A DNA stretch of 64,000 nt from a virus, in IMG/VR virus record IMGVR_UViG_3300042731_007874; one strand, given 5' to 3'. The notes beneath the pieces were generated by a model. The model ran no database searches and had not been told where the DNA came from. It saw nothing but the letters and a program-made list of their open reading frames with translations. The stretch's first letter is position 1. Each line of letters opens with the position of its first letter. The translations under genes were made by a program, and so were the position numbers. Below are positions 46,979-64,000 of this stretch, piece by piece.

Positions 46979-46993
46979 TAACGGAGGTTAGTA

Positions 46994-47130: not shown

Positions 47131-48074
47131 TAACTAAAAAGGTATGGGCCGGAGAAGAAAAATGTCGCTCAAATCGGAGAACTCGAAAGACAACTCCGAG
47201 GGTAAGTCTGATAGCGATATCAGAATCCCGTAGAGACTTTAAAGGATTTCTCAAGTGAGTAGATTAGTAATTAGAGATAGACATGGAAGATATATTGGAA
47301 CCGAGCAAGTCTATACAGACGAAGATTTGATTGGTTCAGTAGAGATTGCTTCAAAGATTTTAGGAAAGACCCCGACTTTCCATCAAATGAAAACTTTGTC
47401 AAGATCTCAGAATCTTCCACACCCTAAAACAATCCAAGAGAGATTTGGATCTTGGGAGAACGCTATCTCGATTGCTGGGTTAAGTTCAAACAAATATTAC
47501 GAGAAAGATTTTCTAGTAAAAGAGATAGAACGCTTTATTGCAGAACATAAGCATATTCCAAGTACTAATGAATTTAGGTTTTCTGAAGGCTATCCTGGAG
47601 TCAAAGCTTATAAGCGTCTATTCGGGTCTTTTAATAACGCACTTGTAGAGTTAGGTTATACTCCTGTTTGCGTTGCTAAGAAAAACAAATATTCTTGTAA
47701 TGTGGTTGCGGACGATGGTCATATTTGTGACAGTACAGAAGAAGGGTTAGTAGATAACTTCTTATTTAAGAAAAACATTTGTCACAGTATTCAACCGCTT
47801 TATCCAAGACATGAAAAACTTAACCCTAATGGTTATATTAGAGCTGATTTTTATTTAACAAAAACAAATACTTTTGTTGAATATGCTGGCTTAATTAACC
47901 GAAAATTTTACGCAGAAAAGTTAGAAGCTAAAAAACAGCTTGCTACTGTTTTAGATATCAACTTATTAGTTGTGTATCCTTCTGAACTTGGACAACTTGA
48001 GAAAGTCTTTAAGACGTACTTAGGTACGTAACACGCGACACCTCCGTAGCTGGAGGATGGAATAGTCCAATTTG
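47131..48074 (+). mobile_element. group I intron (944 nt)
   Basis: P1: exon CTCCGGT with GCCGGAG (47148-54), G-U at the splice site; P10: GGTATGG with CTATACT; AGAGACT/ATAGTCC core; terminal G at 48074; splicing restores KAPVYTLG. Confidence 0.9.
47255..48031 (+). CDS. intron-encoded putative homing endonuclease
   Basis: Two P.....RFGS(W/F)..A repeats plus C-terminal SxEE..ADFYL..VEYAG PD-(D/E)XK-like nuclease. Confidence 0.75.
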   Translation: MSRLVIRDRHGRYIGTEQVYTDEDLIGSVEIASKILGKTPTFHQMKTLSRSQNLPHPKTIQERFGSWENAISIAGLSSNKYYEKDFLVKEIERFIAEHKHIPSTNEFRFSEGYPGVKAYKRLFGSFNNALVELGYTPVCVAKKNKYSCNVVADDGHICDSTEEGLVDNFLFKKNICHSIQPLYPRHEKLNPNGYIRADFYLTKTNTFVEYAGLINRKFYAEKLEAKKQLATVLDINLLVVYPSELGQLEKVFKTYLGT

Positions 48075-48615
48075 CTATACTCTTGGATCTGCAGACCCCC
48101 GTGCAATTGCGCGTGGTAAGAGAGCTATTGCTGGGTCGTTAGTTTTTATTCAGTTCGATTCAGAACCAGTTATGTTTGAGTTAGCGAACATAACTGACGT
48201 TACTCGGCAGCTTTATTTCCTGAGTGATATTGATGACCTTCGTCCTGAGTATAATGCCGCTAATCAGATTCCAGTAGCTGGGACAACGGTTACTCCTGTA
48301 GGAGAGACCTCTCCTAATTTCCCAGGAGCTTCTATCGATCAGGCAGAATCAGATATTACTGCAGCTGGTTCTGATCAAATCCGGGCAGTCCCTTGGTATC
48401 CGGATCAGATTCCTGCATTCGACATTGTTCTTTCGGCGGCTAACGAGTATGGCGCTCTAGCTATTATGAAGATTCTTGGTGTCGAGCTGATGAACTCTGG
48501 CTATGGGGTTTCAATTGATGACATGGTTTGTGAGCATAGTTATACCTATATCGCTCATGGCCTTATTCCTTGGACCGCACAAGGCATCCACTCAAGTATG
48601 TTGAATAACGTCTAA
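48075..48615 (+). CDS. tail tube protein, exon 2 (spliced product 225 aa)
   Basis: YTLGSADPRAIARGKRAIAGSLVF in frame with track ORF 48172-48615; 137+541 nt = 226 codons. Confidence 0.85.
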
Positions 48616-48638
48616 TTCCCTTCCCTGCGAGGCGGCTA

Positions 48639-49508
48639 ATGGCTGAGCAAAACATAGATTCTAGTGGTCGGTTAGTAGATCCTACTCTCTTGACCGCCTC
48701 TGATTATTTGGGTTATGGAACCTATAGTGGAACTGATATTAAAGTTACCGTTCATTATCCAGGCACAGAGAAAGCCAGAATAGAACTTAATTATGACAGA
48801 GAGACTACAGAACAAGAACTAAAAGACGAAGAAGCTTATTTGAATAAGCGCAGAGCTGCTGGCGCAGACCCAAGTGAGCTTCAAGAAATACAGAATAGTA
48901 TTGCTGCGATAGAGAGTAATCTTCAGTCTTTAGACGACCAAGATAAAAAGATTAGAGACCTTCCAACTTCCAAACAACTAGCTGAGCTACAAACTTTAAG
49001 TTGGTCTATCTATAGAGGTAAATCGCCAGACAGGTGTTTTGGATCTGTTTATCCAAAAAGCTATGTTCGTGGACAACGCACAATAGGCGGTTCTATGGTA
49101 TTTACCTTATTCTACAAGCATGTCTTGCACGAGATCTTGTCTTTAAACTTAGGTTTATATAGTACTGGGACTAGTGATGCTGATTCTTATGTTGAAACAA
49201 CTAATTTAATCGACCAATTACCTCCGTTAGATATTAGTATTGTTTTTGCAAATGAATATGGAGCATTGTCTCATATGGGGCTTTGGGGAGTAGAGTTTAT
49301 ACAAGAGGGAGGGACTCTGTCAATTGAAGACATATTTTCAGAATCTGTAGTCCAATATGTTGCTAGAGATCTTGATCCTATTAGAGAAGTTGCGAAAAGA
49401 GAACTTAATAGCCAAGGGGTTACCTCTCATTGGCAGACTACCGCCTCCGACTTGCTGAATAACGACAGTCTTAAAAATCACTTAAAGAGAAGGAATCCTT
49501 ATATTTAA
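48639..49508 (+). CDS. tail tube paralog 2 with coiled-coil insertion
   Basis: YSGTDI, RGQRTIGGSMVF and DQLPPLDI..ANEYGA align with tube 1. Confidence 0.75.
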   Translation: MAEQNIDSSGRLVDPTLLTASDYLGYGTYSGTDIKVTVHYPGTEKARIELNYDRETTEQELKDEEAYLNKRRAAGADPSELQEIQNSIAAIESNLQSLDDQDKKIRDLPTSKQLAELQTLSWSIYRGKSPDRCFGSVYPKSYVRGQRTIGGSMVFTLFYKHVLHEILSLNLGLYSTGTSDADSYVETTNLIDQLPPLDISIVFANEYGALSHMGLWGVEFIQEGGTLSIEDIFSESVVQYVARDLDPIREVAKRELNSQGVTSHWQTTASDLLNNDSLKNHLKRRNPYI

Positions 49509-50410
49509 TGACGATTAGAGATCCATATGGCGAGGTTTTAGGAACAAATAATGCTGGAACTACGGTATATGAATACGACAAATATACCGGGTCTCAAATA
49601 TCTGTTCTTATTGGGGATGTTGTTATTGACGACGCTGTTGGATTGAGCTTTGTCAAACAACAGTCAAAAACTCCTATTTACGGATTTGCGTCTCAATATT
49701 TTTCTTTTGTTGCTGACGGACATGTACTTGTCCAGGGTTCTCTATATATCTCTTTTAAAGAAGCCGGATATCTGTTTTATCCGATCCAAAGGTTCTTGAA
49801 TAGAACTGCCAATTTATATGCCGAAAATAGCGAAACCGATTGGCAAAATACAGCACAGACTGCTACTTCTCCTAGATATTCTGTTAATGACGACGGAGAG
49901 ATAGTAAATTACTACAAGCCTCAAGACTATACTTTTACCGAAGCTGCTGCTGCTGCAGAAACAAAGAGAGTAATGCAAGCAAATGTAGAGCAAATGTATA
50001 ACTGGCAAAGTAGGGATGGGACTCCGAGACAGCAGTCCAAATACAACCAAGCTTGGAGAGAGCTTGCTGCGTTACCTGATGATAAGTTTGAGGATTGGGC
50101 CGAAGTCTTTGAAGATACTATTTGGTTTGGTTCTGATAAATCAAATCCATTTGTTAGAGATAAGCTCTTTAGTAAAAACATTCCTCCAGGGACGATGATT
50201 AACGACGAAGACGTATTAAGCCATCGAGGAGCAGATCAATATCCTGCTGTAGATATTTTTATTACTTATGGAGATATGAGTAGAAAACCCGCCAACCATA
50301 CAGTAAAAAAACTTTTAGATGTCCATTTTATTGGACAAGCCCAAACATTAGAAGTTTCAGACCAACCAGTGTTAGAAAAGTACGATTTCCTTGCAAGAAC
50401 TCTAGTTTAG
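49508..50410 (+). CDS. tail tube paralog 3 / tube initiator-like protein
   Basis: YTGSQI, KTPIYGFA and VQGSLYI tube-fold motifs. Confidence 0.7.
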   Translation: MTIRDPYGEVLGTNNAGTTVYEYDKYTGSQISVLIGDVVIDDAVGLSFVKQQSKTPIYGFASQYFSFVADGHVLVQGSLYISFKEAGYLFYPIQRFLNRTANLYAENSETDWQNTAQTATSPRYSVNDDGEIVNYYKPQDYTFTEAAAAAETKRVMQANVEQMYNWQSRDGTPRQQSKYNQAWRELAALPDDKFEDWAEVFEDTIWFGSDKSNPFVRDKLFSKNIPPGTMINDEDVLSHRGADQYPAVDIFITYGDMSRKPANHTVKKLLDVHFIGQAQTLEVSDQPVLEKYDFLARTLV

Positions 50411-50442
50411 TTATATTATAATAAGAACAAAAGGAGAATTCT

Positions 50443-51207
50443 ATGGCGAAATACAAACTTCGTGAAGATCGGTTAGATCCAAAACTAAAACAACAGCTGG
50501 CCGCTGCTCAAAAACAAGCAGATGCCTTTAATCGAACTAAGAAAACTGATATCTATGGAAAACCTAATTTTAGCGTCAAAGAAGATTTGCATGAAATGCG
50601 AAGCACCAATCTTATTGACGTAGATTGGGAACAAACAACTTTAAAGGAGATAGAGAAAATGGGAAAAGAACAATCACTTCCAGAAGTTAATTCTGGAGTA
50701 GATGCAGCAAAAGCAGCTGGGTTCACGGTTCCAGAAGTAGAAATGCCACAACAGGGTCCTTTGCCTGAAGAGGCAAATTCTTCTCAAGAGCAAGAACCAA
50801 AAGAAGAAAAGCCTCTAACTTTCGAACAGAAGCTTGATATGGTTACTAAAGAGCTGGAGTCAATTTACAAAGGCTCTCCTTCAAAAGAGCAGCTTATAAA
50901 GCTTAAAGAAATGCACGGAGGAATTTTTATCCTTGATTCTCGCGCTTTAGGTGTCGGTAGTGACATTTTTATCTATCGGTATTTGAAGAGAGCCGAGTAT
51001 ATTCAGGTAATGCAAGCCTGGGGGAAGCTGGAACCCGACAAGCAGAATATAGCAATTGTAAATAAATGTCTCATCTGGCCGCGTTTGACTCCAGAATTTG
51101 TTGGTAGCTCTCCAGCCGGAATGTTTGAATTGTTAGCAGAACAAATACGAATCAGAAGTATGTTCTTGGATCCTACCGCAGTAGCTTCTGTTACTATGAA
51201 ACTGTAA
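50443..51207 (+). CDS. tail assembly chaperone (probable)
   Basis: Position between tube and tape-measure genes; FIYRYL.R.EY..CLIWP pattern. Confidence 0.65.
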   Translation: MAKYKLREDRLDPKLKQQLAAAQKQADAFNRTKKTDIYGKPNFSVKEDLHEMRSTNLIDVDWEQTTLKEIEKMGKEQSLPEVNSGVDAAKAAGFTVPEVEMPQQGPLPEEANSSQEQEPKEEKPLTFEQKLDMVTKELESIYKGSPSKEQLIKLKEMHGGIFILDSRALGVGSDIFIYRYLKRAEYIQVMQAWGKLEPDKQNIAIVNKCLIWPRLTPEFVGSSPAGMFELLAEQIRIRSMFLDPTAVASVTMKL

Positions 51208-51213
51208 TAAATA

Positions 51214-51897
51214 ATGTCAGTGATAAAACTACTTGAGTCAATTAGGCTTCAAGGTACAAATAGCCTATATGCCTCTATCTTCCCTGATGGGACAGAAGTA
51301 GTTTTTAGACTCCCTCCATTCAAAGAAGCAGCTAGACTTGCTTTTATCCTGTCTTTGGTCCATGAACAAGATCTCCAATATCTAATACAAAACCAGATCT
51401 TTTCTAACTATGTAATTGATGACTATTTAGCAAAACACGATAACGACATTCCTGCTGGAGTTGTTTCTTCAATTGCAAATGTAATCTTATATCTTTCTGG
51501 GGTTAATAATTCTGCAGATTTTATAGAAGAACAAATAGATCTTGCTCGTGACAATATAGATTTTTATTCCTCTATGAAGAGTTGGATTCTAACGGCTTTT
51601 AATGGATACACAATTGAAGCATTAGATAAACTTAACTATCAAGAGTTATTAGATTTATTTGCTCTCGCAGAGCATTCATTACTACAACGAGGTATAATAC
51701 AAGAAGGACTATCTCTATCTCGATCAAAAGAAGAGACTATTCCGTTAGGGAAACAAATTACCGAAGATGCTTCTGCTTTTAAACAGTTTGAACATGAATC
51801 AGCTCCTCCAAGAAGAAATAGTGCGGAGCTTGAAAGACAATCAAGACTAAGAGAGCAAGCATTCTACGAGAAGATGAGAAGACAAAGAGGAGGCTAG
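51214..51897 (+). CDS. second tail assembly chaperone-like protein
   Basis: Position; VFRLPP..E; helical. Confidence 0.55.
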   Translation: MSVIKLLESIRLQGTNSLYASIFPDGTEVVFRLPPFKEAARLAFILSLVHEQDLQYLIQNQIFSNYVIDDYLAKHDNDIPAGVVSSIANVILYLSGVNNSADFIEEQIDLARDNIDFYSSMKSWILTAFNGYTIEALDKLNYQELLDLFALAEHSLLQRGIIQEGLSLSRSKEETIPLGKQITEDASAFKQFEHESAPPRRNSAELERQSRLREQAFYEKMRRQRGG

Positions 51898-51900
51898 TAT

Positions 51901-54900
51901 TTGGTCTTACCAACAATCGCTTCAGGAGATCAGCCTCTTCCTTCAGATCAGGGAGATTTAACCCCTATTGCAAAGGCTGCGTTGGTTACTGGAAGCATAG
52001 GCGCTTCTGGTTTCATTCCTACTGCAAACGGCAGACTTTTTGATCGTTATGTAAATGCTATAAGAGCTGTTGAGACAGGATTTCCGGCTGCAATTTTAAG
52101 AACTTTCAGAACTTCTGAGTTCTTATCTCCTCTAGAATCTTGGTCTCAAATTGACGTTTCCACTTCTGCACTTCAACACGGGAAGTATGCAGAATTCTTA
52201 TCTTCTAGATTTGGTCATGCTACAGGTCTTTCTTTAAAACGTACAGGTTCTGTCTTTGGTCAAGTTACAAACGAAGCTGGAGAACTCTTAGGTTATGGTC
52301 TTCAAATCGAAGCTGGAAGCCAAAAGGGAACTGCCATCGCAGACTATTTTGCCCGGGTTTCCGGAGTCCAGCTTACAGAATTCCAATCTCTTAATGATGC
52401 ACTATTAAGATCTCAATATAGAATCGCTAATCCTGGAATTCCTTATGCTGAATGGTTAGAGTCTTTAGAACCTCAGTTAAGAAGACAAAGACTTATTCTT
52501 GGAAGCCGAATTAGAAGTAAAATAAATATACTTGGCAAAGATCTTCAGTTATCTAAGTCTTTTGCCGCAGGTCTTGCAAAAACAGAAACTGTCTTTAATT
52601 TACTTCGAGCAAAAGCAGCTTCCACTACAGGCCGTCTAAACACCCTTCTCTCGGCTCCTCTAGACATACCCTACCTGGGGGGTGTCTTATCTAAGATACC
52701 TGGACTGAGAAGCCTCTCTGTGCGTCCTGGTACAAGTACACAGATGATCAGTCGCTTCATTGGTAAGGGGTTGTTAATAGGTGCTGGATGGAAAGGGTTA
52801 GAGTATTTAGATTACTTAAGGCATGAAGGAAGTCCTCTAGCTCCAGTTTTCTCTACTGCCGCAGGTGCTGGAATTGGATCTCTAATTGCTCGTGCTCCAG
52901 GAGCAAAGTTTTCTAAGGCCGGATTGTTGATTGGTGGAGCAGTTGGACTTTTGGCAGGTATCGCTCCTAGATTTGACGAGGGTCTCTTTTATGGAGCCGC
53001 CACATTAGCTACAGATCTTACTTTAACAAAAGCAGAAATTTCAGAAAGTATTGGTTTAACAGAATCTCTTCAAGAACAAGAGAGAGTAACTCCTGGTCTG
53101 ACAGATATTTCTACTGGAATGGCATTTGCTGGTATCGGTGCCATGGCAGCTGGTTTTTTCTCTTATGGCGGGCTTTTGAAAGAATCAATTCTTAACAGAA
53201 AATCCGCATCCAGGTTTGCTGATGTTATTGAACTAACCAGAGCAGCTAGAAAAGAAAATTTATTAAAAGGAGTTTGGAAATCTAGATTTGGTCGAGCAAT
53301 TGAAGACATTCCTCTTCTAAAGAATATTACGAAAACAAAGTCCCCCATGCTATTAGGAGCTTTAGCCGGTTTTGCTGGTTGGCAACTCTTGTCTTCTGGT
53401 TTGTCTATTCTGTCTGGGAACCCTATGGCAGCTGTCCCCGGAGCTTCTGTATTAGGAACAACAGAAACACCAGAAGCACTACAAGCAATCTATTCTGGAG
53501 AAGAAGAAGTCCCTATAAGAAAAGGCAGATTTTGGGAATTCGGCCGGTGTTTGGCGGAACATACTGAAATCATTACGTTTTCTGGTATTTCCAAGAAAGC
53601 TAAAGATATTAAAATAGGAGATGTTCTTGTTGGGAGAGATTATAAAAAAGCAACGGTAAAAAATATATTTACAAGACATCACAAAGGAGAGATTTTAAAA
53701 TTTTCTTGTGCCTTTGATCGTGACTTAAAAGTAGAAGTTACTGGTAACCATAGGATACCAATATTAAGAAAATCATATTCGAATAAAGAGCATAGAGTTG
53801 AATACAAAACAAAAGAAGTTAAAGCATCTGAAATTAGACTTAATGATTATGTTGAAGTTCCTGTTAAAAAACTAGAATCAAATATTACAGATTCTGCGAC
53901 CAACCCGGCAGTTATAAACTATAAAGGGAAGATATATGCCGCAATTAGAACTATCGAAACAGAAGAATACGATGGTGTCGTTTATGACTTCGAAGTAGAC
54001 AACCCAGATCACCTATTCAGAGCGGGTCCTTTTCTTGTTCATAATAGTTCTTTCGAAGGGGATAAAATCCAATATTTCCGGCAACATGCGCTGCCTCGTC
54101 TTAGAGCAAGAGCGTATCAAAAAGGTCTCTACGGTTCTGAAGAGGAAAGATGGGGATATAGCCCTTGGCTTAACCCTGTAAAAGCTTTATTTGGTTCTGA
54201 TGAATGGAAGTATCACTATGAGCAGAAATACCAAAAAGAGAGACCTGCTCCAGTAACAGCTCCTGCTGGACAAGAGATTCCTTTTATAGGTCCATTGGTT
54301 GCAGAGACAATTGGTAAGCTAATAAAGCCTAGAAAATTAGTTCGTCCAGAAGAATGGATTACCGATACTGGAGTAAAGTATAAACCGTCAGATGAAGAGT
54401 TAGAACCCGCTTATGGAGTTGGAGGACTATCTGCTGGTCAACCTTTGTCTCCAGGAGAACCAACTCAATTATTTAACGAGCTGCTTTATAGAAGAAGAGA
54501 AGCTATTGGTTTGGTTGGTTTTACCGAAGGAGCCCTTGTCAAGTCATTATTGGGTCGTGAAGAGATCTTTCCTAACCAACAAACACTTGCACAAATGGGA
54601 AAAGAAACTGGTGGAGAAAATTGGCTTTTTCAACATTTGAATCTTGGAGGGGCCTATACTGCCAGCGAGCCCACAAGGCGATTTATTCCTAGAACTAGAA
54701 GTTATTTAGATACTTACAACCCTTTATCAAACCAAATGCCTTCTTGGATGCCGGGAGAAGATTACTTTATGGATTTTAAGACAGGAAATCCTTATCAATT
54801 ATCTCAACTTCCAGAAGCAGAGATTCGTCTTCCAGGTCCAGGGCTTGCAAGTTTATATCCTGCGTTAGAAGGAGTAGATCCTGAAAATTATCCGTTGGCA

Positions 54901-56565
54901 TATCGAGCAAAAGTATTAGGTGACGTTGCTTTTTGGAGCAATGAATACAGACAAACAATCTCCCAAGCAAAGAAGAACTTAAAATACATGTCAGAGGAAG
55001 AACAGCAAATTGTTCTAACAACAGAAGAACAAGTTAAGGCTAAAAAACAAAGAAGAAACTTTAAAGATTATGTTTTTGCCCAAGACCAATTACAACAAGA
55101 GACTGTTACCGTAACAAATGTTTTGTCTCCGCGAAGATTTAAAACAAAAGAATATGGAGATACTATATTAGAAGCAAAAGGTATTGGCGCGATTACCAAA
55201 CCACAAGAGGCTTTAGAGACGACCAGAAATGTTCTTGAAGGAAGTAGGATCTCTATTTATTCTCCAGGTCTAGAGTCTAGAAGATTTAGTCGTGTTTCTG
55301 AAGGGCCAAGAATGGAAGTTGTTCCAATGCTTGGAGATAGAGATTTAGGAACTGTTCTTACGGAAGCCGGGTATGCTCAACACAAAGAACTAGAAGATGA
55401 ATTTAGACAAATTAGATTTACTCCTTCAGAACGACTAGCTGGGTCGATCTCTGAAAAAGTACTCCATGGAGCAGAAACTCCTTTAGAATATCTGACTCCT
55501 ATCTCTCCTGCTTCTAAGTTAATTAGACAGCGATCTCCAATAGAAGAATACGAGAGAACAGAAGCAATTGGAACTGCAAATTCTTTCTGGGATCGCCCCG
55601 TAGATAACTTCTTAAAGCCTGCTTACAATATGACTAAATACGAGTTAGGTTCTAGCGAGATACCAGAAGAGATACAACAGCGGCGCGATATAACAGAATA
55701 TTTTGATAAGTTACAGTGGGTTAAAGCATCAAGACTAGAGGCCAAAGCAAAACTAACCGGAGACTTTCATTTAGCTTCAGAGTTTAAGAAACAAAAAGAA
55801 TCTACTGTTTTTGGTGTTAATGTTTTCGGCTCTCCCGTTAATGTAATGAGAGCTTTACCTCGTCGAGAAAGAGATTTCTTTAATGAATTTGTTCAAGCAA
55901 AAACAATAGAAGACAGAGAGAAAATTTTATCTTTAGTTCCAGAAGACGAAAGAAGGATTTATATTTCTCAATGGGCAAGACAAGAAGAAAATAGTTCAAG
56001 AGCTAAATTAGAAGCCAAAATTGCAACAGAAGACGACAACAAAACTCTAGGCTTAGTTGCTCAAATGAGAAAGTCAGAAGGGTTCTCTTTTGATGAGGCA
56101 ATGGCAAGACGATGGATGGAAGAGACTGGAGGTAAGATTCCTTTTGATGATTGGCTGAGAGAACAAAAAGCAGAAGAGTATTTTAGAACTCATTCATTAC
56201 CAGGTGCAGACTGGATCGGTTTTAACCCTGCGGTTAGCCTAGATGATATTCGTATGGTTGCTGTTGAAATGCTTGGGCAAGATTTCCATGAACATGATTT
56301 ATGGGATGACAGAAAAAGAATGTTAGCAAGAAAACCTTATATAAATCCCACTGTAGTATCAGAAATGCAAGAGCAGGCAGAATATCAAGATAGCTGGAAG
56401 GTTGCTAGAAACTCTAAAGCTTTAACTCAAATGTTTGGAGACTATAAGGCTTCTTTGTATCAATCAAAGATTGCTGCTAATATTGGCCCGCCGCGATATA
56501 ATATAGAATTAAGAGATGGAAGACAAGATCTTGTTGACAAAGCTTATGAGAGGATTACCGGTTAA
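51901..56565 (+). CDS. tape-measure-like / ejected large virion protein (intein-containing)
   Basis: 1554 aa; Gly/Ala hydrophobic segments; follows the chaperones; TTG start with GGAGG 7 nt upstream. Confidence 0.7.
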   Translation: MVLPTIASGDQPLPSDQGDLTPIAKAALVTGSIGASGFIPTANGRLFDRYVNAIRAVETGFPAAILRTFRTSEFLSPLESWSQIDVSTSALQHGKYAEFLSSRFGHATGLSLKRTGSVFGQVTNEAGELLGYGLQIEAGSQKGTAIADYFARVSGVQLTEFQSLNDALLRSQYRIANPGIPYAEWLESLEPQLRRQRLILGSRIRSKINILGKDLQLSKSFAAGLAKTETVFNLLRAKAASTTGRLNTLLSAPLDIPYLGGVLSKIPGLRSLSVRPGTSTQMISRFIGKGLLIGAGWKGLEYLDYLRHEGSPLAPVFSTAAGAGIGSLIARAPGAKFSKAGLLIGGAVGLLAGIAPRFDEGLFYGAATLATDLTLTKAEISESIGLTESLQEQERVTPGLTDISTGMAFAGIGAMAAGFFSYGGLLKESILNRKSASRFADVIELTRAARKENLLKGVWKSRFGRAIEDIPLLKNITKTKSPMLLGALAGFAGWQLLSSGLSILSGNPMAAVPGASVLGTTETPEALQAIYSGEEEVPIRKGRFWEFGRCLAEHTEIITFSGISKKAKDIKIGDVLVGRDYKKATVKNIFTRHHKGEILKFSCAFDRDLKVEVTGNHRIPILRKSYSNKEHRVEYKTKEVKASEIRLNDYVEVPVKKLESNITDSATNPAVINYKGKIYAAIRTIETEEYDGVVYDFEVDNPDHLFRAGPFLVHNSSFEGDKIQYFRQHALPRLRARAYQKGLYGSEEERWGYSPWLNPVKALFGSDEWKYHYEQKYQKERPAPVTAPAGQEIPFIGPLVAETIGKLIKPRKLVRPEEWITDTGVKYKPSDEELEPAYGVGGLSAGQPLSPGEPTQLFNELLYRRREAIGLVGFTEGALVKSLLGREEIFPNQQTLAQMGKETGGENWLFQHLNLGGAYTASEPTRRFIPRTRSYLDTYNPLSNQMPSWMPGEDYFMDFKTGNPYQLSQLPEAEIRLPGPGLASLYPALEGVDPENYPLAYRAKVLGDVAFWSNEYRQTISQAKKNLKYMSEEEQQIVLTTEEQVKAKKQRRNFKDYVFAQDQLQQETVTVTNVLSPRRFKTKEYGDTILEAKGIGAITKPQEALETTRNVLEGSRISIYSPGLESRRFSRVSEGPRMEVVPMLGDRDLGTVLTEAGYAQHKELEDEFRQIRFTPSERLAGSISEKVLHGAETPLEYLTPISPASKLIRQRSPIEEYERTEAIGTANSFWDRPVDNFLKPAYNMTKYELGSSEIPEEIQQRRDITEYFDKLQWVKASRLEAKAKLTGDFHLASEFKKQKESTVFGVNVFGSPVNVMRALPRRERDFFNEFVQAKTIEDREKILSLVPEDERRIYISQWARQEENSSRAKLEAKIATEDDNKTLGLVAQMRKSEGFSFDEAMARRWMEETGGKIPFDDWLREQKAEEYFRTHSLPGADWIGFNPAVSLDDIRMVAVEMLGQDFHEHDLWDDRKRMLARKPYINPTVVSEMQEQAEYQDSWKVARNSKALTQMFGDYKASLYQSKIAANIGPPRYNIELRDGRQDLVDKAYERITG
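53548..54045 (+). mobile_element. 166-aa mini-intein
   Basis: Begins CLAEHTEI, VTGNHRI block B, ends VYDFEV..FLVHN, +1 Ser; no endonuclease. Confidence 0.92.
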
Positions 56566-59500
56566 TGCCAATTGACAATAGATATTATGAAGAAAGAAGT
56601 CCTTTATGGAGTTTGGCTTCTGCCAGTGCTCTTGCTGGCGGAATAGGATATTCTTATATTCAAGGGAAAGAAGACTTTGCCCGCGCTTTAAGAGCAGGGT
56701 CAAATGATATTTCTGAATCGATTATTTCAAGAGCAGCACAAGTTTCTGATTTTAATGTTGGTTCTGTAATGTCTTCTAATATAGACGAAGAATTCTTACG
56801 TTCTAATGTTCTCTCAATGGTTGGAGGGCCAGGAATTGTTAAGGGAAATCTTCATCAAGCAGCTTACGAATCTCTTCTTGCTACTGGAACAATAACAAAT
56901 GAAGAAGCTTTGTTGTCTTTAGCAGAAATTAACAAACAATCAACTCCGTTAGACGCTTACGAAGCAGCGATGTCTGTAATTAGAGGAAAAGGAGATCTTG
57001 ATGTTTTCGGAAACAAAATAGAAGAGATGACTACAGCTGGAGAAGCAAGATTAGCTTTACTACAAGACGCGGTAATGCCTTCGTCTCGTTATGGGGTTTT
57101 GGGTCCAAGGAATGTACCTTTCTCTGAACTATCAGCCACTGCACAGGAAAGGTTTGGTTCGTTAAAAACAAACATAACAGAAGCTGCTGGTAGTGGTTTT
57201 GATATCAACTGGAAGTTCAGAAACGTAGAAGACCTAATTGGAGGCAGATCTGTTACAACTCCAATGGCAATGTTAGAGATCAGTGGAGAAAGATTTGCTT
57301 TCCCTTTAGACCCATCTAGTAAGGTTGTTTATGGAGGTAAGAACCTATCCACAAGATATATGACAAGACAAGCATATACTACTGGTGGACAGCTTATGAA
57401 CTATGCGGATCTTGCCGAAGCAACAGTTGTTGATGCAATTCGCAAATCTCGTAACCAACAGGAATTAAAGAATAATTTATTTAACGCCCACAAAGGCTTA
57501 ATTGAGAACATATGGGAGTCAGATTCTGCCGCGAGGTCTGCTGCTATTTGGACTCCACCAGAACCAGTATTAACATCCGGAGGAAGAGCAAGAGCAAGAT
57601 TAACACTAAAAGAAGCGGTCGCTTATAATATTCCAGAAGAAGAAAGGATCGCTTTATTAGGAGAGAATCTTTATCCTTTTACCAGCCCAAATACAGCAGG
57701 GAAGGGAACTTTTGTTACGGCAAACATAAGAGAAGGTTTATTTGGTCCGCTTGGGAACTTAATAACTCCGGAGCAAAGACCTACTCAATTCATAAGATCT
57801 GAATGGGGAGTTACAGAAGCTGCCAAGCAAGCTGCTTCTCCATTTAGAGGAACTTTTGGATCGGCGTTTGATAGAGTTGATAGGAAGGTTCAAGGAGCTG
57901 ATTATAAAGCCCTCTTGTACGGAACGGCAGACCCAAGATCTGCTAAGGCATATTCAGCTCCTCAGCCATTGACTTTTTACGCTCGTCCTGGCGACAAAGT
58001 AGGCTATCAAAGAGAAGCGTTAAACAATCTTTTATCAGCAGAAGAAGGGGCCATATCGTCTTCGGCTAGAGGGATGTTCGAATACGAAAAATTACTACAA
58101 AAGAAAATCTCATTAACAAGCAACCTTCCTTTAAATAAACAATTAGCCTCTAAACTAGAAGGAGTTGCTCGTGGAACATTTGTTCCGATTGAAGGGATTG
58201 GAGCAGGAGCATTTTTAGGAACAGAGCTAGAGACTGGTAGAGAGTTAGCCTTATTGGCTGATGACGCAGTTGCTCAATCTGTTATAGGTGCAGAGATAAC
58301 AGAAGAAGGACAGGCTACTTTATTTCTTAAAGAGCGCCGCAGAATGCAGAAAAATGAACTTTGGAAATTCTTCTCAGAAGAGAATAAATATATGCTTGGG
58401 CTAGCAGACGATCTTAAGTTTAGAGAAATAGCTGAAGCTGCTGGTGCAGAATTAACTATAGGAGGTCAACGACTAGAGGCTATTCAATCCGGAAAATTAG
58501 TTGGAAGAAACCAATTCTCTCTATTAACTCAACAGATAGAAGCGGCTTCTGTATTTGCTGGTAATATTATAGATTCTGACGTAAACAATACTGTTAGGAG
58601 GAGAATAAGAAACCAAGAAATTCAAGCTTTTCTAGCAGACCCGGCTAAAGCCTTAAATGTTTCTGGGTTAATGGCCAATAGAGAGATTGATAGTGCCTAT
58701 GCAGTTCAAAAAAACCTTATTGGCCTCACAAAGGGATGGGGGTTCTCTGAACAAGAGATGCAACGTACATTTGGCTTAATGTCTTCTGGCCACTTAGAAC
58801 AAATGGTTTCAGAAGGAATCCTGTCTCCTGCAGAGCAAAAGTCAATTTTGAGTTCTAGTGGAGTTATTGGACTAGGCAAAGGTAGATTAGGGGATCTTGC
58901 TTCTGGTAACTGGGGACGAGGATCTTTCGAGCAATCCGGGTTTAGGCTTTTGACAGCCAAAGGAGAAGAAGGAGCTGCTTTTGCCACAGAATTAAGTAAA
59001 CGTATTTTAGGGAAAGGAGAACTTGGCGCAATCGCCAAAATGGAAGAATCTGTTTTAGGGCAAGAAAGCTTTTTGAAAAAATTCTCTAAAATGACTTCGA
59101 CTCCTATCTCTAAGATAGAAGATCTTGTTGGAGAAACAGGTAGATACGTTTCTTTAGGAAGAAAGTTTAAGGCTTTTGGCGGATCGAGTAGAATATATGT
59201 TCCTGGTACTTCTGAAGCATCTGGGTTATTAAAGCCAATTATTTCTAGAGGAGAAGAGATTTCTGCACCATTAATTTCTGAGCTAAGGTCTTTTCAATCT
59301 CTCTTAAAAGCCGGACGACCAGAGGAAGAACTTGAATCTGCAGCTGAAAGACTAAGAAACCTAGTTGTTCAGCTTTCTGAAACTCAGTCTGCCGCTAGAG
59401 GAAAAGTAGTTGGTTCTGAGATATTGACTGGCGTTAGAAGAACTTTTAAAGAACAAAGCGATACCTTTAGGATCTCTCAACAATCTGCAGATAGAATGTT

Positions 59501-60968
59501 TAACGATCTGATTAAGCGTTCTGCTGTTGGAGAAAAAGAATTTCTAGAACAACAAAGACAAGCTCTTATGTCTGGAGAAACCCTCATGGGAGGAATGTGG
59601 CGTCATCCAACAACCGGACCCGAGTCTTTTCAGTTTGTTAAATACAAAGTAGATAAACAACTAGCAGATGGAATGGTCGCTGCTCCAACCAAATTTGGGA
59701 CCTTAGCTTTCAAGGGAGGAAGATCATACAAAGCTGATATTTCAGAAATGGTTGGTTTTGCTGGAGACTTTGATAGAGACCAATTTGTTTTGTCTGCTAT
59801 TGCGGAAAAAAATACCGCTAATAAAGTTAGACGAAATATAGATACAAAGATGAGACAGCAATATACTAATTATGTATTTAATCATTACGGGATGAAAGAC
59901 ATAATTGACCAAAAAGTTAGTAAAAGCGCAATCTTAGATACGTTATCCAGAGAGGCTCTTCAATCTGGATACAAAAAACTAACAACAGCCAAAACAACAA
60001 CTGGGCAAGTTAACCTTGCTCTTCAAAAACTAAAGATTGGGTTACAATACACTGCACCAGAAGAATACAGACCATTAGCGGATCTGTTCTTCCATCTAGA
60101 ACAAACTGCTATCGGTGGTAAACATGGTGTCTTAACCTCTGATTTGTATCAAGCTATTGCTGCATCCACTAAGGGAGGAGAACAAGGTCTTCGAACAATG
60201 ACAGATGTTTTGACTACTTTGTTTGGTGGAGATAAAATTAATCTTAAAGGACAAGTTACTGATTCTTTTGGAAATGTTACTTCTCATGCTTTTAACATGG
60301 ATCTAAAACAAGCTGCGCAAGTTGCGATTTCTTCTTATGACGCGGTTAGTCAAGATGTTGACATTGCGGTAAGAGCAGCCTCTATGGCAAAAGGAAAATC
60401 ATCTGACTTTGTTACTTTAAACAAACTAACAGAACAGTTTTATGCTCGACGACAAGGATCTATTGACATTGCCCAACAATACATGCAGGCAAATGCCGAA
60501 AACCTAGAGACTCTTACGGGTAAAACTTCTCGACTAATTCGCAAAGCAGAAGCTAAATCAAAGTCATTACTAAGTGCAATTAGAGCACACAAGAAACCAA
60601 TCTTGATTGGAGCAGCTGCGGCAGTAGGGATTGCAGCTTTGTCCCCAAGTGTTTCTGGTGTTTTAAGGCCGGTTACTCCTGTTCCCAATAAGAGAAGAGA
60701 GATTACAGCAGAACACATTACCCCTGAAGGCCCGCCAATGAACCCGCCGGAACCTGGACCTAACATTGCACCTAGAGTTTACGATTTTGGTGGCGGTGAC
60801 GAATCAATCCGTGCTAATATTAGAACTAGAATCAATGACTTACAACAATCAGAAAACTTCATGGATAAAGTCAAAGGTTTTGGAGGACAATCCTCTCTTC
60901 GAATCAAAGATGATCGTTCTGTATTAGATCCTCATTTGTTGGCAAACAAGATACATGAAAGATTGTAA
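56565..60968 (+). CDS. candidate single-chain two-barrel DNA-dependent RNA polymerase (virion-type)
   Basis: WRHP (R1013), AGDFDRD (D1068/1070/1072), GQVN, AIGGKHG; upstream K601/K608 and LEAIQSGKLVGRN. Confidence 0.7.
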   Translation: MPIDNRYYEERSPLWSLASASALAGGIGYSYIQGKEDFARALRAGSNDISESIISRAAQVSDFNVGSVMSSNIDEEFLRSNVLSMVGGPGIVKGNLHQAAYESLLATGTITNEEALLSLAEINKQSTPLDAYEAAMSVIRGKGDLDVFGNKIEEMTTAGEARLALLQDAVMPSSRYGVLGPRNVPFSELSATAQERFGSLKTNITEAAGSGFDINWKFRNVEDLIGGRSVTTPMAMLEISGERFAFPLDPSSKVVYGGKNLSTRYMTRQAYTTGGQLMNYADLAEATVVDAIRKSRNQQELKNNLFNAHKGLIENIWESDSAARSAAIWTPPEPVLTSGGRARARLTLKEAVAYNIPEEERIALLGENLYPFTSPNTAGKGTFVTANIREGLFGPLGNLITPEQRPTQFIRSEWGVTEAAKQAASPFRGTFGSAFDRVDRKVQGADYKALLYGTADPRSAKAYSAPQPLTFYARPGDKVGYQREALNNLLSAEEGAISSSARGMFEYEKLLQKKISLTSNLPLNKQLASKLEGVARGTFVPIEGIGAGAFLGTELETGRELALLADDAVAQSVIGAEITEEGQATLFLKERRRMQKNELWKFFSEENKYMLGLADDLKFREIAEAAGAELTIGGQRLEAIQSGKLVGRNQFSLLTQQIEAASVFAGNIIDSDVNNTVRRRIRNQEIQAFLADPAKALNVSGLMANREIDSAYAVQKNLIGLTKGWGFSEQEMQRTFGLMSSGHLEQMVSEGILSPAEQKSILSSSGVIGLGKGRLGDLASGNWGRGSFEQSGFRLLTAKGEEGAAFATELSKRILGKGELGAIAKMEESVLGQESFLKKFSKMTSTPISKIEDLVGETGRYVSLGRKFKAFGGSSRIYVPGTSEASGLLKPIISRGEEISAPLISELRSFQSLLKAGRPEEELESAAERLRNLVVQLSETQSAARGKVVGSEILTGVRRTFKEQSDTFRISQQSADRMFNDLIKRSAVGEKEFLEQQRQALMSGETLMGGMWRHPTTGPESFQFVKYKVDKQLADGMVAAPTKFGTLAFKGGRSYKADISEMVGFAGDFDRDQFVLSAIAEKNTANKVRRNIDTKMRQQYTNYVFNHYGMKDIIDQKVSKSAILDTLSREALQSGYKKLTTAKTTTGQVNLALQKLKIGLQYTAPEEYRPLADLFFHLEQTAIGGKHGVLTSDLYQAIAASTKGGEQGLRTMTDVLTTLFGGDKINLKGQVTDSFGNVTSHAFNMDLKQAAQVAISSYDAVSQDVDIAVRAASMAKGKSSDFVTLNKLTEQFYARRQGSIDIAQQYMQANAENLETLTGKTSRLIRKAEAKSKSLLSAIRAHKKPILIGAAAAVGIAALSPSVSGVLRPVTPVPNKRREITAEHITPEGPPMNPPEPGPNIAPRVYDFGGGDESIRANIRTRINDLQQSENFMDKVKGFGGQSSLRIKDDRSVLDPHLLANKIHERL

Positions 60969-63900
60969 TGCCTAAAGAGTTAATATTTCCACAAAGCATA
61001 GAAGAAGAAGACTGGGAGAAAGATGTCTCTTTAGAGATTGGGACTTCTTCTCCAAGTGGCTTAGAACTTGAATATGCCAAAGGAGCCGAAAGAGAAGACT
61101 TATTTGTTTCTTTTGTGGGAACTGATATTTTCCCTGATGATGTTATAGTAATTAATGATGTATATTTAGATAATATTCCTACAAGCGCAATAAAAATCCA
61201 ATCTAGCCCAGATGTCTTTGTAGCAGAAACACTTAGAACTAAATCTCCTATAGTTACCTCTAAAGGTAAACAAGATTTTATTTTAGATTTAAGTTTGGTT
61301 TTTAAGCCAGGAAAAGCACAACAACAAAAGCTTCATCGATTAATTGCAGAGCTGTCTAAAACTCCTTTTACATTTATCTTTAATAATAAAATTAAGAAAG
61401 CCTTGGCTGTAAAAGATTTTGAAACAACTTTATTTGTATTAGAATTCGGCAACTTAAGATCTGTCTCTGACGCTGTCGGAGTCGTTGCTTTAGACTTAAC
61501 TTTTCATTTATGTAACTATAAACCTTTCAGTAACCACTGTTATTATAATGCTCGTTTAGGAGGACTAGAGAAAGAAAAAGAAACGAAGGCCGAAGAGGTT
61601 GGAACCCCTATTGAGCTAGGAGGGCTACAAGGTTTTGAAGCTGACGAATATACAATAACGAAACATACAGAGAAGGTAAGAGCTAATATTCAAAAAGGGC
61701 TAGAGGCAACTAAATCTGCTTCTCAAGGTAATATTCCAGTTGCTTTCCCGTCTGAATCAGATGCTTGGATGTATTACGCCAATAGACTAGAGTCTCAAGT
61801 TCAACAAATTACAGATTCTCCTTCTGATTATATTGGGTTAGCTGTCCAAGAATATAAATATATTTCTCCTCCAGACGAAGCAAAAATAGGTAAGTCTTTA
61901 AAAGACTTTTCTTTTGATAATCCTCTTCATCCAATTAGGGCTCCATATGTTGCAAATAATCCAGATTCAACTAGAACAATTAACCAACAGTCGGTTGATG
62001 AGCTAACAAGCTTAGAGTCTGATTCGTCTATTAAAACAAAATTTATTAACACTAAAACAGGACAGAGTATTAGTGTTAAGTTACTAACTGATCAAAACGA
62101 ACCGTCTGCAGAAGCTGCTTATCAGCTAAGTAAATTATGGAGAGTAGGAAAATATAGCGATTGTGCCTATGTTCAATTAGGGTTAGTAGGGAAGTTAGCT
62201 TTATTATCAAATAGGTTCCCAGGAAGAACAATTCGAATTATTTCCGCGTCTAGAAAACAAAAGAACTTATCAAAACCGCCTAGCAAACATGCTATAGGTC
62301 AAGCAATGGACCTAACCATTGATGGTGTTCCAAATGAAGAAATTTTTGCTTTTGCTAAACAACAACATAAAACAGGAATTGGCTTTTACCCAAACTCAAC
62401 TTTTGTTCATATCGATCATAGGGAAAAATCAACCTATTGGATAGACTTATCTGGACCAGGAGAAAAGGCCAACTATGTTTCTTCTAATGATAGGGCTAAT
62501 TGGTTAAGAGATTACTATCAAACTCATAATGACATAGAAGAAGACACTGATGAAATAAATCATAAACCAGATTATTTATCTGAACTAAACAACTCCAAAG
62601 GAGGAGAAGTATCTAAAACTCAAGAAAAGATAGACAGAAAAAAAGAACAAACTTCTCCAAACGAATCTAGAAAAAAATCTTTAGAAGCTAGAGAGCTTTG
62701 GATTAAAGCACAAGAAACTGAAGGTTGGTTTTATTACAGCAAAGACAAAAAGATAAAGAATCTTTTCTTTCGCAAAATCGCAGCAAATGTGTCTGGAGAC
62801 TTTTCTGCTCAACAACAAGGACTAGTTCTTCCCAATATAGTTTGTTCTGCTTTGTCACTTTCTTTTGGACATAGAATTTCTCCTCTTCGTCTTGTTGGCC
62901 AACCGTACTATTCTTATCAGTTTTTAGGAGCAGGCAATAGAACAGGTCAAATTGTGTTTACTTATGCGGGAAAGACTGGTCAGAAATCTGCTGATATTAT
63001 TAAAGAAATAATTTATAAAGCCCAAGAGAACTCTCGTAAATTTGGCGCTTTGGTTAAAGAAGCAGGAGCGGTTAATGTTGCTTCTTTGTCTTATCTGACC
63101 GGCGATCAGAATATTTTATTAGCCTTGCTTGGTGTTGAGAATATCGTTGTGACAGGAATAGAAGATGCTTCCTCTCCGGATTCCGCTGATAAAAATCAAT
63201 TGCTTATTGAGTTTATTGTACAGGATTTTGCAGAAGAAACAATAGAAAAAAGATTAACGACCACACTTTCTTCTAAACAACGAATTATTAAAAGCATTAT
63301 GGGAATGTTGTCTTCGCGCAAAGCAGCTGGACTAACAAATGACATTACGTCAATTTACCCAAATCGATCTATTGCAAAAGTGAATTTAGGAACTGGAAGA
63401 GCTTATGAAGTCGTAGAGGGGACTCCTTCATGGGTAGCTAATATTGCAGCTAAAGCTGCGGAACTTTGCCAAGACATAAATAACAAGATGCCTCCAGTTA
63501 AATGGAGAGCAAATAAGCTTGCTGCTAAAACTTGGAAAGATAATTATTCGGAATGGGGAGCTGGAAATCTATTTAATGGCCGAGTCAAGAATATAGATTC
63601 TGAAGAGAAGAACGGAGCTGGACCAACTTTTGGAACTTTACCCGGTAAAGAAATATACGAAAGTGTAAATGGTTCTAGTAATGCTCCTTCTCCAGAGTCT
63701 ATGTATAGTGGAGTATTTCAATATGATGGCGGCTCAAAGACTAATGAAATCCACGAACGAGTCTTCTTGGAATGGCTCAGCAGGATGGATGTTTTAGTTA
63801 AAGAAGTCAACCAGTATGCGGCAGACGAAGAGAATTTCGAAAAATATTTTGGCAACATAGGGCTAGAACTACTAGACGAGGTGAGTGATTCGTTAGGCGA

Positions 63901-64000
63901 TTGTTGTTCTGATTTAGATTTACCTAATGTTCCTGGTGCACGAGTTCCTCTCCCCCCAGAGTTTTACTTTTATGATGATTCAGATGAAGATCCATTAATA
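60968..64000 (+). CDS. baseplate hub-like protein with M15 (YcbK/MepK-like) peptidase domain; truncated by window end
   Basis: Hand-translated open frame of at least 1011 codons from ATG 60968; SKHAIGQAMD..GIGFYPNSTFVHID..SGPGE at ~62280-62465; tube-like motif near 62840-62960. Confidence 0.8.
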   Translation, partial: MPKELIFPQSIEEEDWEKDVSLEIGTSSPSGLELEYAKGAEREDLFVSFVGTDIFPDDVIVINDVYLDNIPTSAIKIQSSPDVFVAETLRTKSPIVTSKGKQDFILDLSLVFKPGKAQQQKLHRLIAELSKTPFTFIFNNKIKKALAVKDFETTLFVLEFGNLRSVSDAVGVVALDLTFHLCNYKPFSNHCYYNARLGGLEKEKETKAEEVGTPIELGGLQGFEADEYTITKHTEKVRANIQKGLEATKSASQGNIPVAFPSESDAWMYYANRLESQVQQITDSPSDYIGLAVQEYKYISPPDEAKIGKSLKDFSFDNPLHPIRAPYVANNPDSTRTINQQSVDELTSLESDSSIKTKFINTKTGQSISVKLLTDQNEPSAEAAYQLSKLWRVGKYSDCAYVQLGLVGKLALLSNRFPGRTIRIISASRKQKNLSKPPSKHAIGQAMDLTIDGVPNEEIFAFAKQQHKTGIGFYPNSTFVHIDHREKSTYWIDLSGPGEKANYVSSNDRANWLRDYYQTHNDIEEDTDEINHKPDYLSELNNSKGGEVSKTQEKIDRKKEQTSPNESRKKSLEARELWIKAQETEGWFYYSKDKKIKNLFFRKIAANVSGDFSAQQQGLVLPNIVCSALSLSFGHRISPLRLVGQPYYSYQFLGAGNRTGQIVFTYAGKTGQKSADIIKEIIYKAQENSRKFGALVKEAGAVNVASLSYLTGDQNILLALLGVENIVVTGIEDASSPDSADKNQLLIEFIVQDFAEETIEKRLTTTLSSKQRIIKSIMGMLSSRKAAGLTNDITSIYPNRSIAKVNLGTGRAYEVVEGTPSWVANIAAKAAELCQDINNKMPPVKWRANKLAAKTWKDNYSEWGAGNLFNGRVKNIDSEEKNGAGPTFGTLPGKEIYESVNGSSNAPSPESMYSGVFQYDGGSKTNEIHERVFLEWLSRMDVLVKEVNQYAADEENFEKYFGNIGLELLDEVSDSLGDCCSDLDLPNVPGARVPLPPEFYFYDDSDEDPLI

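What the first reader, a model, noticed from the sequence alone, without database searches (positions are those of the whole stretch)
56565..60968. Candidate single-chain two-barrel RNA polymerase inside the tail-morphogenesis module
Seen in sequence: the 1467-aa ORF carries, in order, K601-x6-K608, LEAIQSGKLVGRN (638-648), WRHP (R1013), AGDFDRD (three Asp), AKTTTGQVN and EQTAIGGKHG. Established knowledge: two-barrel polymerases use a beta-type barrel with two Lys and a D-x-x-x-N...R segment, and a beta'-type barrel with R-x-P and DxDxD. Single-chain forms are known (SPbeta YonO, crAss-like gp66, QDE-1). Inference: this is a divergent virion-packaged RNAP, co-translated with the tape-measure-like gene and injected for early transcription. 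The DFDRD variant and the position between tape measure and baseplate hub are unusual.
Basis: partly seen in the sequence, partly recalled or inferred. Interest (0 to 1): 0.9.

Follow-up and report, generated by a model that had tools for sequence, protein, structure and literature searches.

The report
Hidden RNA polymerase among phage tail genes
An unannotated 1467-residue protein in the tail-gene block of an uncultured contractile-tailed phage folds like the two catalytic subunits of cellular RNA polymerase joined in one chain and keeps their active-site residues, so this phage lineage probably carries its own, possibly injected, transcription enzyme.

Summary
Window 56565-60968 (+) is one 1467-aa ORF, and every quoted motif is there.

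Sequence libraries find nothing: no match in Pfam, PHROGs, PDB sequences or 50,697 isolate phage genomes. A profile search found 131 relatives, mostly about 1450-1550 aa. In 113 of them (down to 17% identity):
- R1013, D1068 and D1070 are invariant.
- D1072 is kept in 112, P1015 and K601 in 111 each.
- K608 is K or R in 100.

The AlphaFold2 model of residues 230-1340 has pLDDT 90.6. It matches only RNA polymerases:
- phiKZ and AR9 beta-like subunits on residues ~386-782.
- Rpb1 on residues ~832-1310.
- Generic double-psi barrels on residues 950-1079, which carry RHP and DFDRD.

So it is a single-chain two-barrel RNA polymerase. It lies in a gap-free late operon, joined by TAATG to both giant neighbours. 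This gene order is kept in ten close relatives, and the block of giant genes in two distant family members. The protein ends in a family-wide hydrophobic segment and tail motif. No other polymerase or sigma factor was detected, including in a complete 197.7-kb relative.

Virion packaging and injection are inferred, not shown. The upstream "tape-measure-like" gene does not look like a tape measure.

This scan had already noted the same family on other genomes.

The parts
56565..60968 (+). Whole gene: 1467-aa single-chain two-barrel RNA polymerase. Its ATG shares the A of the upstream TAA stop (TAATG).
   Evidence: homologs
56565..57251 (+). N-terminal region, aa 1-229: the least conserved part, with a Gly/Ala-rich segment around W15. 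It was not modelled. A distant member (P0057) carries an RNase_T exonuclease domain in its N-terminal region (residues 201-354), before the conserved core.
57720..58910 (+). Beta-like half, aa ~386-782. It aligns with the beta-like subunits of the phiKZ and AR9 non-virion RNA polymerases.
58362..58388 (+). W600-K601...K608 beta-hairpin, the candidate pair of basic active-site residues of the second barrel.
   Evidence: K601 kept in 111/113, K608 as 95 K plus 5 R; strands at model 370-374 and 379-385
59058..60494 (+). Beta-prime-like half, aa ~832-1310. It aligns with Rpb1, A190 and archaeal RpoA.
59412..59801 (+). Catalytic double-psi beta-barrel, aa 950-1079.
59598..59609 (+). W-R1013-H-P1015, the R-x-P motif (equivalent of beta-prime NRAPTLH).
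   Evidence: R kept in 113/113, P in 111/113; hhalign register with E. coli beta-prime
59766..59780 (+). D1068-F-D1070-R-D1072, the Mg-binding DxDxD loop.
   Evidence: Kept in 113, 113 and 112 of 113 sequences; lies between a short helix and the last barrel strand in the model
59949..60053 (+). A 35-residue helix, aa 1129-1163, containing AKTTTGQVN. Bridge-helix-like (inferred).
   Evidence: Model helix 900-934; conservation of K1143, T1146, G1147 and S/N1150
60057..60167 (+). Helix-loop-helix, aa 1165-1201, containing E1179...K1186-H1187-G. Trigger-loop-like (inferred).
   Evidence: Model helices 936-958 and 963-972; E1179 kept in 109/113, K1186 in 110, H1187 in 94
60594..60665 (+). Hydrophobic Gly/Ala-rich segment, aa 1344-1367, a predicted membrane helix.
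   Evidence: Kyte-Doolittle 1.87; a segment at the same relative position passes the threshold in 71 of 108 full-length relatives, with similar sub-threshold segments in sampled others
60762..60965 (+). Conserved C-terminal tail ending ...DDRSVLDP...KIHERL.
51901..56565 (+). Upstream coupled gene, 1554 aa, with a mini-intein at about aa 552-716. It is not tape-measure-like. It is a compact, mostly helical protein with a nuclease-fold OB domain and two hydrophobic segments.
60968..64000 (+). Downstream coupled gene (2034 aa in full, runs off the window) with an M15 peptidase and lysin-like regions. Its ATG again overlaps the stop (TAATG).

Best explanation
The gene encodes a single-chain two-barrel, Mg-dependent RNA polymerase. 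A beta-like half (aa ~386-782, with K601 and K608) is followed by a beta-prime-like half (aa ~832-1310). The second half carries R1013-x-P, the D1068-x-D-x-D loop, a bridge-helix-like helix and a trigger-loop-like element.

The gene is expressed late, inside the tail and baseplate operon. It is translationally coupled to two other giant proteins, one of which bears a peptidoglycan peptidase.

The most likely reading is a virion cargo or ejection protein. It would leave the particle ahead of or with the DNA, associate with the inner membrane through its C-terminal hydrophobic segment, and transcribe the first phage genes independently of the host polymerase.

Shown here: the fold, the conservation of catalytic residues, the operon position and the conserved gene order. 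Inferred: DNA-templated RNA synthesis, packaging, ejection, membrane anchoring and early-gene specificity.
For: - **Residues.** R1013, D1068 and D1070 are invariant. D1072 is kept in 112/113, P1015 and K601 in 111 each, and K608 is K or R in 100.
- **Colinearity with E. coli beta-prime.** The motifs RGKvvGS, RISxxxAxxMF, RHP and GDFDRD fall in the same order as beta-prime regions 339-346, 366-377, 424-430 and 458-464.
- **Context.** There is no gap of 40 bp or more from window 48172 to past the window end. Both junctions are TAATG. The order sheath ... 1554-aa gene, polymerase, 2034-aa peptidase gene, wedge is identical in the seven relatives whose loci span it, and three cut loci agree over what they hold. 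Two distant members keep a giant gene on each side, one of them cut by the contig end.
- **No other polymerase detected.** No sigma70, Rpb1 or Rpb2 Pfam match appears in this record or four relatives, including a complete 197,730-bp genome. There is no paralog. No other large ORF has R-x-P followed by DxDxD.
- **Terminal features.** The C-terminal hydrophobic segment and the tail motif recur widely in the family.
- **Precedents.** P23-45 gp96 (PMC10770324) and crAss-like virion polymerases and cargo proteins (PMC10172136).
Against: - There are no virion proteomics, no cultured host and no transcript data.
- No repeated early-promoter motif was found in intergenic regions.
- The fourth active-site carboxylate (equivalent of Rpb2 D837 or QDE-1 D709) could not be assigned. 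Candidates are E590 (61/113), E638 (E or D in 82/113) and an acidic residue in the G552...G558 loop.
- Active-site geometry could not be measured.
- A folded ~160-kDa enzyme cannot sit in a tail tube, so gene position does not fix its location in the particle.
- The record held here is only 63% complete.
- Divergent polymerases escape Pfam, as this one does, so 'no other polymerase' is weak evidence.
Confidence: 0.6

Rival explanations
1. It is an active two-barrel RNA polymerase but is not packaged. It would be made in the infected cell and transcribe late or middle genes, like P23-45 gp64 or SPbeta YonO.
Against: The gene sits mid-way in a gap-free, translationally coupled block of tail and baseplate genes, in every relative whose locus spans that block. 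A polymerase needed to switch on late genes should be made before them. The conserved C-terminal hydrophobic segment and tail motif are not expected in a soluble cytoplasmic enzyme.
Confidence: 0.17
2. It is a two-barrel polymerase used for something other than mRNA synthesis. Options are RNA-templated synthesis as in QDE-1 and RDR enzymes, priming of replication, or mainly pulling the genome into the cell.
Confidence: 0.1
3. It is a structural tail or ejection protein that descends from a polymerase but no longer catalyses anything.
For: It lies in the tail module and is flanked by giant structural-type genes. It has hydrophobic segments like tape measures and ejection proteins.
Against: Catalytic residues stay invariant through divergence to 17% identity, which is the signature of selection on catalysis. 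The residues between the aspartates vary freely while the three aspartates do not.
Confidence: 0.04

Closest known systems
Neurospora QDE-1 and plant RDR2 (cellular single-chain two-barrel RNA polymerases)
   Different: No detectable sequence similarity. This is a phage protein in a tail operon with a C-terminal hydrophobic segment and tail motif. It probably uses a DNA template. The dimeric RNAi role of QDE-1 does not apply.
Thermus phage P23-45 gp96, the tape-measure-fused virion RNA polymerase (PMC10770324; PDB 8H2M, 8H2N)
   Same: A two-barrel polymerase encoded with tail genes. gp96 also combines the polymerase with transmembrane and metallopeptidase parts. Here those parts are spread over neighbouring coupled genes. 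This is the closest precedent for function.
crAss-like phage phi14:2 gp66 and PhicrAss001 polymerase cargo proteins (bioRxiv 10.1101/2020.03.07.982082; PMC10172136)
   Same: A single-chain two-barrel enzyme with a DFDxD loop, packaged in virions and ejected. Predicted crAss proteins appear among the viral structural matches (cr50_1, E 8.6e-4).
   Different: gp66 is a domain of a protein of over 2000 aa in a podovirus-like particle. PDB 6VR4 is not among the listed matches. There is no sequence similarity.
SPbeta YonO (PMC5467207)
   Same: A single-chain, two-barrel, DNA-dependent RNA polymerase of a phage with very low similarity to cellular enzymes.
   Different: YonO is about 840 aa, is not in a virion module, and transcribes late prophage genes.
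phiKZ and AR9 multisubunit phage RNA polymerases
   Different: Those enzymes are split into four or five subunits and are recognisable by Pfam. This one is a single chain that Pfam does not see.

Membership tests
Two-barrel (double-psi beta-barrel) RNA polymerase superfamily | Beta-prime-type barrel carrying R-x-P and the DxDxD metal loop | tested here: met
   R1013 113/113, P1015 111/113, D1068 and D1070 113/113, D1072 112/113. Generic DPBB domains and Rpb1 align on aa 950-1079.
Two-barrel (double-psi beta-barrel) RNA polymerase superfamily | Second, beta-type barrel that supplies two basic residues | tested here: met
Two-barrel (double-psi beta-barrel) RNA polymerase superfamily | Fourth invariant carboxylate of the beta-type barrel (Rpb2 D837, QDE-1 D709; PMC2919709) | tested here: inconclusive
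   No single invariant Asp or Glu. Candidates are E590 (61/113), E638 (E or D in 82/113) and an acidic residue in the G552-G558 loop in most sequences.
Two-barrel (double-psi beta-barrel) RNA polymerase superfamily | Bridge helix and trigger loop after the catalytic barrel | tested here: inconclusive
   A 35-residue helix at aa 1129-1163 and a helix-loop-helix at 1165-1201, with conserved E1179, K1186 and H1187. Rpb1 alignments run to model residue 1081. Residue-level equivalence was not available.
Two-barrel (double-psi beta-barrel) RNA polymerase superfamily | Asp triad, Arg and Lys pair clustered at the interface of the two barrels | not testable with these tools
   Model coordinates are not returned.
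Pfam RNA_pol_Rpb1_2 (PF00623) and RNA_pol_Rpb2_6 (PF00562) | Score above the curated profile cut-off | tested here: not met
   No Pfam hit at E<=1. No match in this or four related genomes, while the controls matched. The relation is visible by structure only.
P23-45 gp96-type tape-measure-fused virion polymerase | Polymerase domain fused to a tape measure protein | tested here: not met
crAss-like gp66 virion polymerase | Structural or sequence similarity to gp66 (PDB 6VR4) | tested here: inconclusive
   6VR4 is not among the 50 rows shown. Predicted crAss proteins match weakly in BFVD.
Virion-delivered RNA polymerase (functional class) | Gene expressed with the virion structural genes | tested here: met
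   Gap-free operon, TAATG coupling and conserved gene order. Timing itself is inferred.
Virion-delivered RNA polymerase (functional class) | Protein present in particles; early transcription independent of the host polymerase | not testable with these tools
   No cultured member. No match in 50,697 isolate phage records.
Virion-delivered RNA polymerase (functional class) | A dedicated promoter motif upstream of early genes | tested here: inconclusive
   K-mer searches of 42 intergenic regions gave nothing clear.
Tail tape measure protein (label given to the upstream 1554-aa gene) | Extended, largely helical protein without a compact fold | tested here: not met

The most novel reading that the evidence does not exclude
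The three translationally coupled giant proteins would form a transcribing ejection machine in a contractile-tailed phage. The three are the 1554-aa nuclease-fold protein, the polymerase and the 2034-aa peptidase protein. The polymerase would be threaded out of the virion and anchor at the inner membrane by its C-terminal helix, beside the channel. As the lineage's only polymerase, it would both start the early programme and pull the ~185-200 kb genome into the cell by transcription. This would be a myovirus counterpart of the N4 and T7 internalisation strategies, built on a two-barrel enzyme.
Probability: 0.3. Interest if true: 0.85.

Novelty: new variant of a known kind. Interest (0 to 1): 0.72.

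Why it matters
Two-barrel RNA polymerases carried in virions are known from only a few phage groups: phiKZ-like, AR9-like and crAss-like phages, and P23-45.

This family extends the idea to a diverse clade of uncultured contractile-tailed phages of about 175-200 kb. It has 131 clusters at 50% identity. Pfam, PHROGs and BLAST do not see it, so such genomes are currently read as lacking any polymerase.

The family offers a compact enzyme (a core of about 1100 aa) for studying the minimal two-barrel transcription machine. It also offers a natural case where the polymerase, membrane and peptidase functions that are fused in P23-45 gp96 are separate genes.

The result also shows that gene position alone mislabels neighbours. 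The supposed tape measure is a compact protein with a nuclease fold.

Tried and rejected
**Sequence searches that found nothing**
- Pfam, PHROGs and PDB by sequence for the protein.
- A 113-sequence profile against PDB sequences gave only chance hits at E>0.1.
- tblastn of P0001, P0061 and P0097 against 50,697 isolate phage genomes.

**Weak or failed comparisons**
- hhalign of the family profile against single E. coli rpoB gave no meaningful alignment. Against rpoC the support is weak (P 0.008, probability 5%), although the register is sensible.
- Pairwise BLAST among the three giant neighbours found no shared terminal signal.
- The ESM Atlas feature search for the upstream protein gave no usable hit.

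**Promoter search**
- Genome-wide frequent k-mers turned out to lie in a dispersed paralog family. Intergenic k-mers gave only AAAAGATAT in 5 of 26 regions.
- The sigma-70 and terminator scan of 45000-64000 was at or below shuffled expectation.

**Limits of the negative searches**
- The T7-type polymerase family search matched nothing, but its controls matched nothing either, so it is uninformative.
- PDB 6VR4 (crAss gp66) and PolD did not appear among the listed structural matches. This does not exclude similarity.

**Reading rejected**
- The gene is not itself a tape measure, and the upstream gene is not one.

Full report
**Observation**

Window 56565-60968 (+) is a single 1467-aa ORF. All quoted motifs are present. 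They are K601 and K608 in WKFFSEENK, WRHP with R1013, GDFDRD with D1068, D1070 and D1072, AKTTTGQVN at 1142-1150 and EQTAIGGKHG at 1179-1188. LEAIQSGKLVGRN is at 637-649, one residue off the stated range at each end.

The gene lies in a phage structural block. A major head protein is at 39881-41188 and the tail sheath at 45098-46978. The portal, an intein-size-expanded terminase and a baseplate wedge gene downstream were identified.

**Invisible to sequence libraries, but a real family**

Pfam, PHROGs and PDB sequences give no hit. Nor does tblastn against 50,697 isolate phage genomes, for this protein or for two distant relatives.

The word-indexed search found 16 relatives at 38-49% identity, all 1457-1500 aa. 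An exhaustive profile search with residues 230-1340 found 131 cluster representatives, 105 of them at E<=1e-10. Nearly all full-length ones are about 1400-1650 aa.

In an alignment of 113 sequences (mean column identity 15%, down to 17% identity to the query), the only invariant columns are R1013, D1068 and D1070. D1072 is kept in 112, P1015 in 111, K601 in 111, Q656 in 109, E1179 in 109 and K1186 in 110. K608 is K in 95 and R in 5, and H1187 is kept in 94.

The residues between the aspartates vary freely. The second position is F, Y, T, L, K or V, and the fourth is A, G, R, K, D or N. So DFDRD is one variant among many, not a peculiarity. An R-[H]-P...DxDxD pair about 40-85 residues apart is present in nearly every full-length member.

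**Structure**

AlphaFold2 on residues 230-1340 with a 52-sequence alignment gave mean pLDDT 90.6 and pTM 0.89.

- **Foldseek against the PDB.** It returned 75 hits at E<=1e-3. All listed hits are RNA polymerase second-largest or largest subunits (bacterial, plastid, poxvirus, Pol IV/V) or QDE-1.
- **ESM Atlas.** The listed nearest cluster rows all carry Rpb1 and/or Rpb2 Pfam domains. The best are single-chain fusions of both, at TM 0.51/0.55 over 689 residues.
- **BFVD.** It adds unannotated or mis-annotated viral look-alikes. They include a 'minor tail protein' of an uncultured siphovirus (E 2.8e-10), proteins of Acinetobacter phage ME3 and of Microcystis phages, and crAss-like proteins.

Model numbering plus 229 gives protein numbering. 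The beta-like half is therefore about 386-782 and the beta-prime-like half about 832-1310. The catalytic barrel is 950-1079.

In the model, R1013 follows the first barrel strand. The Asp loop sits between a short helix and the last strand, as in beta-prime. K601 and K608 lie on consecutive strands of a hairpin. A 35-residue helix (1129-1163) and a helix-loop-helix (1165-1201) follow, where a bridge helix and trigger loop would be. Their identification is inference.

**Sequence-level register**

hhalign of the family profile against E. coli beta-prime alone is statistically weak (P 0.008, probability 5%). It does place four family motifs against beta-prime 339-346, CGLPKKMALELF (366), NRAPTLH (424) and NADFDGD (458), in order and with similar spacing. 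The beta side gave nothing.

From my own knowledge of beta, [K/R]648-N649...Q656 downstream of the Lys pair resembles R1106-M-N...Q1111. This is a lead, not a test.

The fourth active-site carboxylate required by the eight-residue signature of PMC2919709 could not be assigned.

**Context**

- There is no intergenic gap of 40 bp or more between window 48172 and well beyond the window end.
- The gene's ATG overlaps the stop of the upstream 1554-aa gene, and its own stop overlaps the ATG of the downstream 2034-aa gene. Both junctions read TAATG.
- The order sheath, four smaller genes, 1554-aa gene, polymerase, 2034-aa gene, wedge is identical in the seven relatives whose loci span it. Three loci cut by contig ends agree over what they hold.
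- Two very distant members have a giant gene on each side of the polymerase, though in one the downstream gene is cut by the contig end.
- The downstream protein has an M15 peptidase and lysin-like regions.

Its family is larger and more conserved than the polymerase family, and it often hosts inteins. The copy in the window has a mini-intein.

**Only polymerase detected**

The record held here is an IMG/VR fragment of 120.5 kb, 63% complete. A 184-kb contig carrying the identical protein exists in the protein collection.

In this record and four relatives there is one copy of the family and no paralog. The relatives include one of 197,730 bp with terminal repeats, rated 100% complete. None has a Sigma70_r2, Rpb1_2 or Rpb2_6 match, while the controls matched. 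In the complete genome no other large ORF has R-x-P upstream of DxDxD. The T7-type search was uninformative because its controls matched nothing.

**Extensions**

- A Gly/Ala-rich hydrophobic segment at 1344-1367 has Kyte-Doolittle 1.87.
- A Pro-rich linker follows it.
- The C-terminal motif is ...D-D-R-x-x-L-D-P...K-I-H-E-R-L.

A hydrophobic segment at the same relative position passes the threshold in 71 of 108 full-length members. Sampled others show similar segments just below it. The strict tail motif is present in 38 of 108, with looser forms in others.

One distant member has an RNase_T 3'-5' exonuclease domain in its N-terminal region (residues 201-354), before the conserved core. This again points to nucleic-acid chemistry.

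**Mechanism**

The best reading (about 0.6) is a virion cargo or ejection polymerase. It would be made late with the tail proteins and packaged, either in the head or around the tail lumen, and necessarily at least partly unfolded during exit, as proposed for crAss cargo (PMC10172136). It would be delivered with the peptidase-bearing neighbour, tethered at the inner membrane, and transcribe the first genes. The closest functional precedent is P23-45 gp96 (PMC10770324).

That it is a two-barrel RNA polymerase I put at about 0.9. Packaging is inference. Rivals are a non-virion polymerase (0.17), a non-mRNA role (0.10) and an inactive structural relic (0.04).

**Comparison and novelty**

Structurally it is nearest to QDE-1 and RDR as a whole chain, and to phage and cellular beta and beta-prime subunits half by half. 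It is less like gp96. It fails the Pfam profiles and is not a tape-measure fusion. It is best filed as a new, free-standing family within the known kind 'single-chain two-barrel phage polymerase'.

This scan had already flagged the same family on other genomes. One follow-up there (e1-5743155) reached the same reading. My structural ranking differs from its 'closest known' only in that gp96 is the closest in function, not in fold.

Noticed in passing
window 51901-56565 (intein about 53527-54066): The upstream 1554-aa gene carries a mini-intein (C...HN|S) inside its most conserved motif (RKGRFWEFGR|C). Its family of more than 135 proteins is an intein hot-spot, with many members carrying LAGLIDADG or Hint domains. 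An intein-free homolog folds compactly with an SNase/Tudor-SN-like OB domain. It is not a tape measure.
   Followed up: yes
window 27830-31021: The large terminase is 1063 aa. Its PHROG matches split into residues 73-234 and 654-972, which suggests an intein or other insert of about 400 aa.
   Followed up: no
window 47255-48031: An ORF with homing-endonuclease-associated HNH repeats (PF18780, E 1.8e-24) lies between the sheath and the following tail genes.
   Followed up: no
window 60968-64000 and beyond (L021:7457-13561, minus strand): The downstream 2034-aa protein has an M15 peptidase (aa ~408-484) and lysin-like regions (phrog_20474 at aa 1730-1902). It is a candidate cell-wall-opening ejection or hub protein.
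   Followed up: partly
P0057 / L033:7298-12388: A distant family member (1696 aa) carries an RNase_T DEDD exonuclease domain at residues 201-354, ahead of the polymerase core. It sits in the same trio of giant genes.
   Followed up: partly
BFVD matches: Cultured phages have unannotated structural look-alikes of this polymerase: Acinetobacter phage vB_AbaM_ME3 (A0A172Q021, A0A172Q0S6) and Microcystis phages MaMV-DC and Ma-LMM01. An uncultured siphovirus 'minor tail protein' (A0A8S5SD80) is the second-best match, possibly another tail-fused form.
   Followed up: no
window 12027-12411: A 385-bp divergent intergenic region separates a long leftward block of small genes from the rightward block that ends in the structural genes. 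It is a likely control region. No repeated promoter motif was found.
   Followed up: partly
window 48639-50410: Two adjacent genes after the tube region (289 and 300 aa) both match phrog_9206, which is labelled 'major head protein', although they sit in the tail block. The PHROG label is probably misleading.
   Followed up: no
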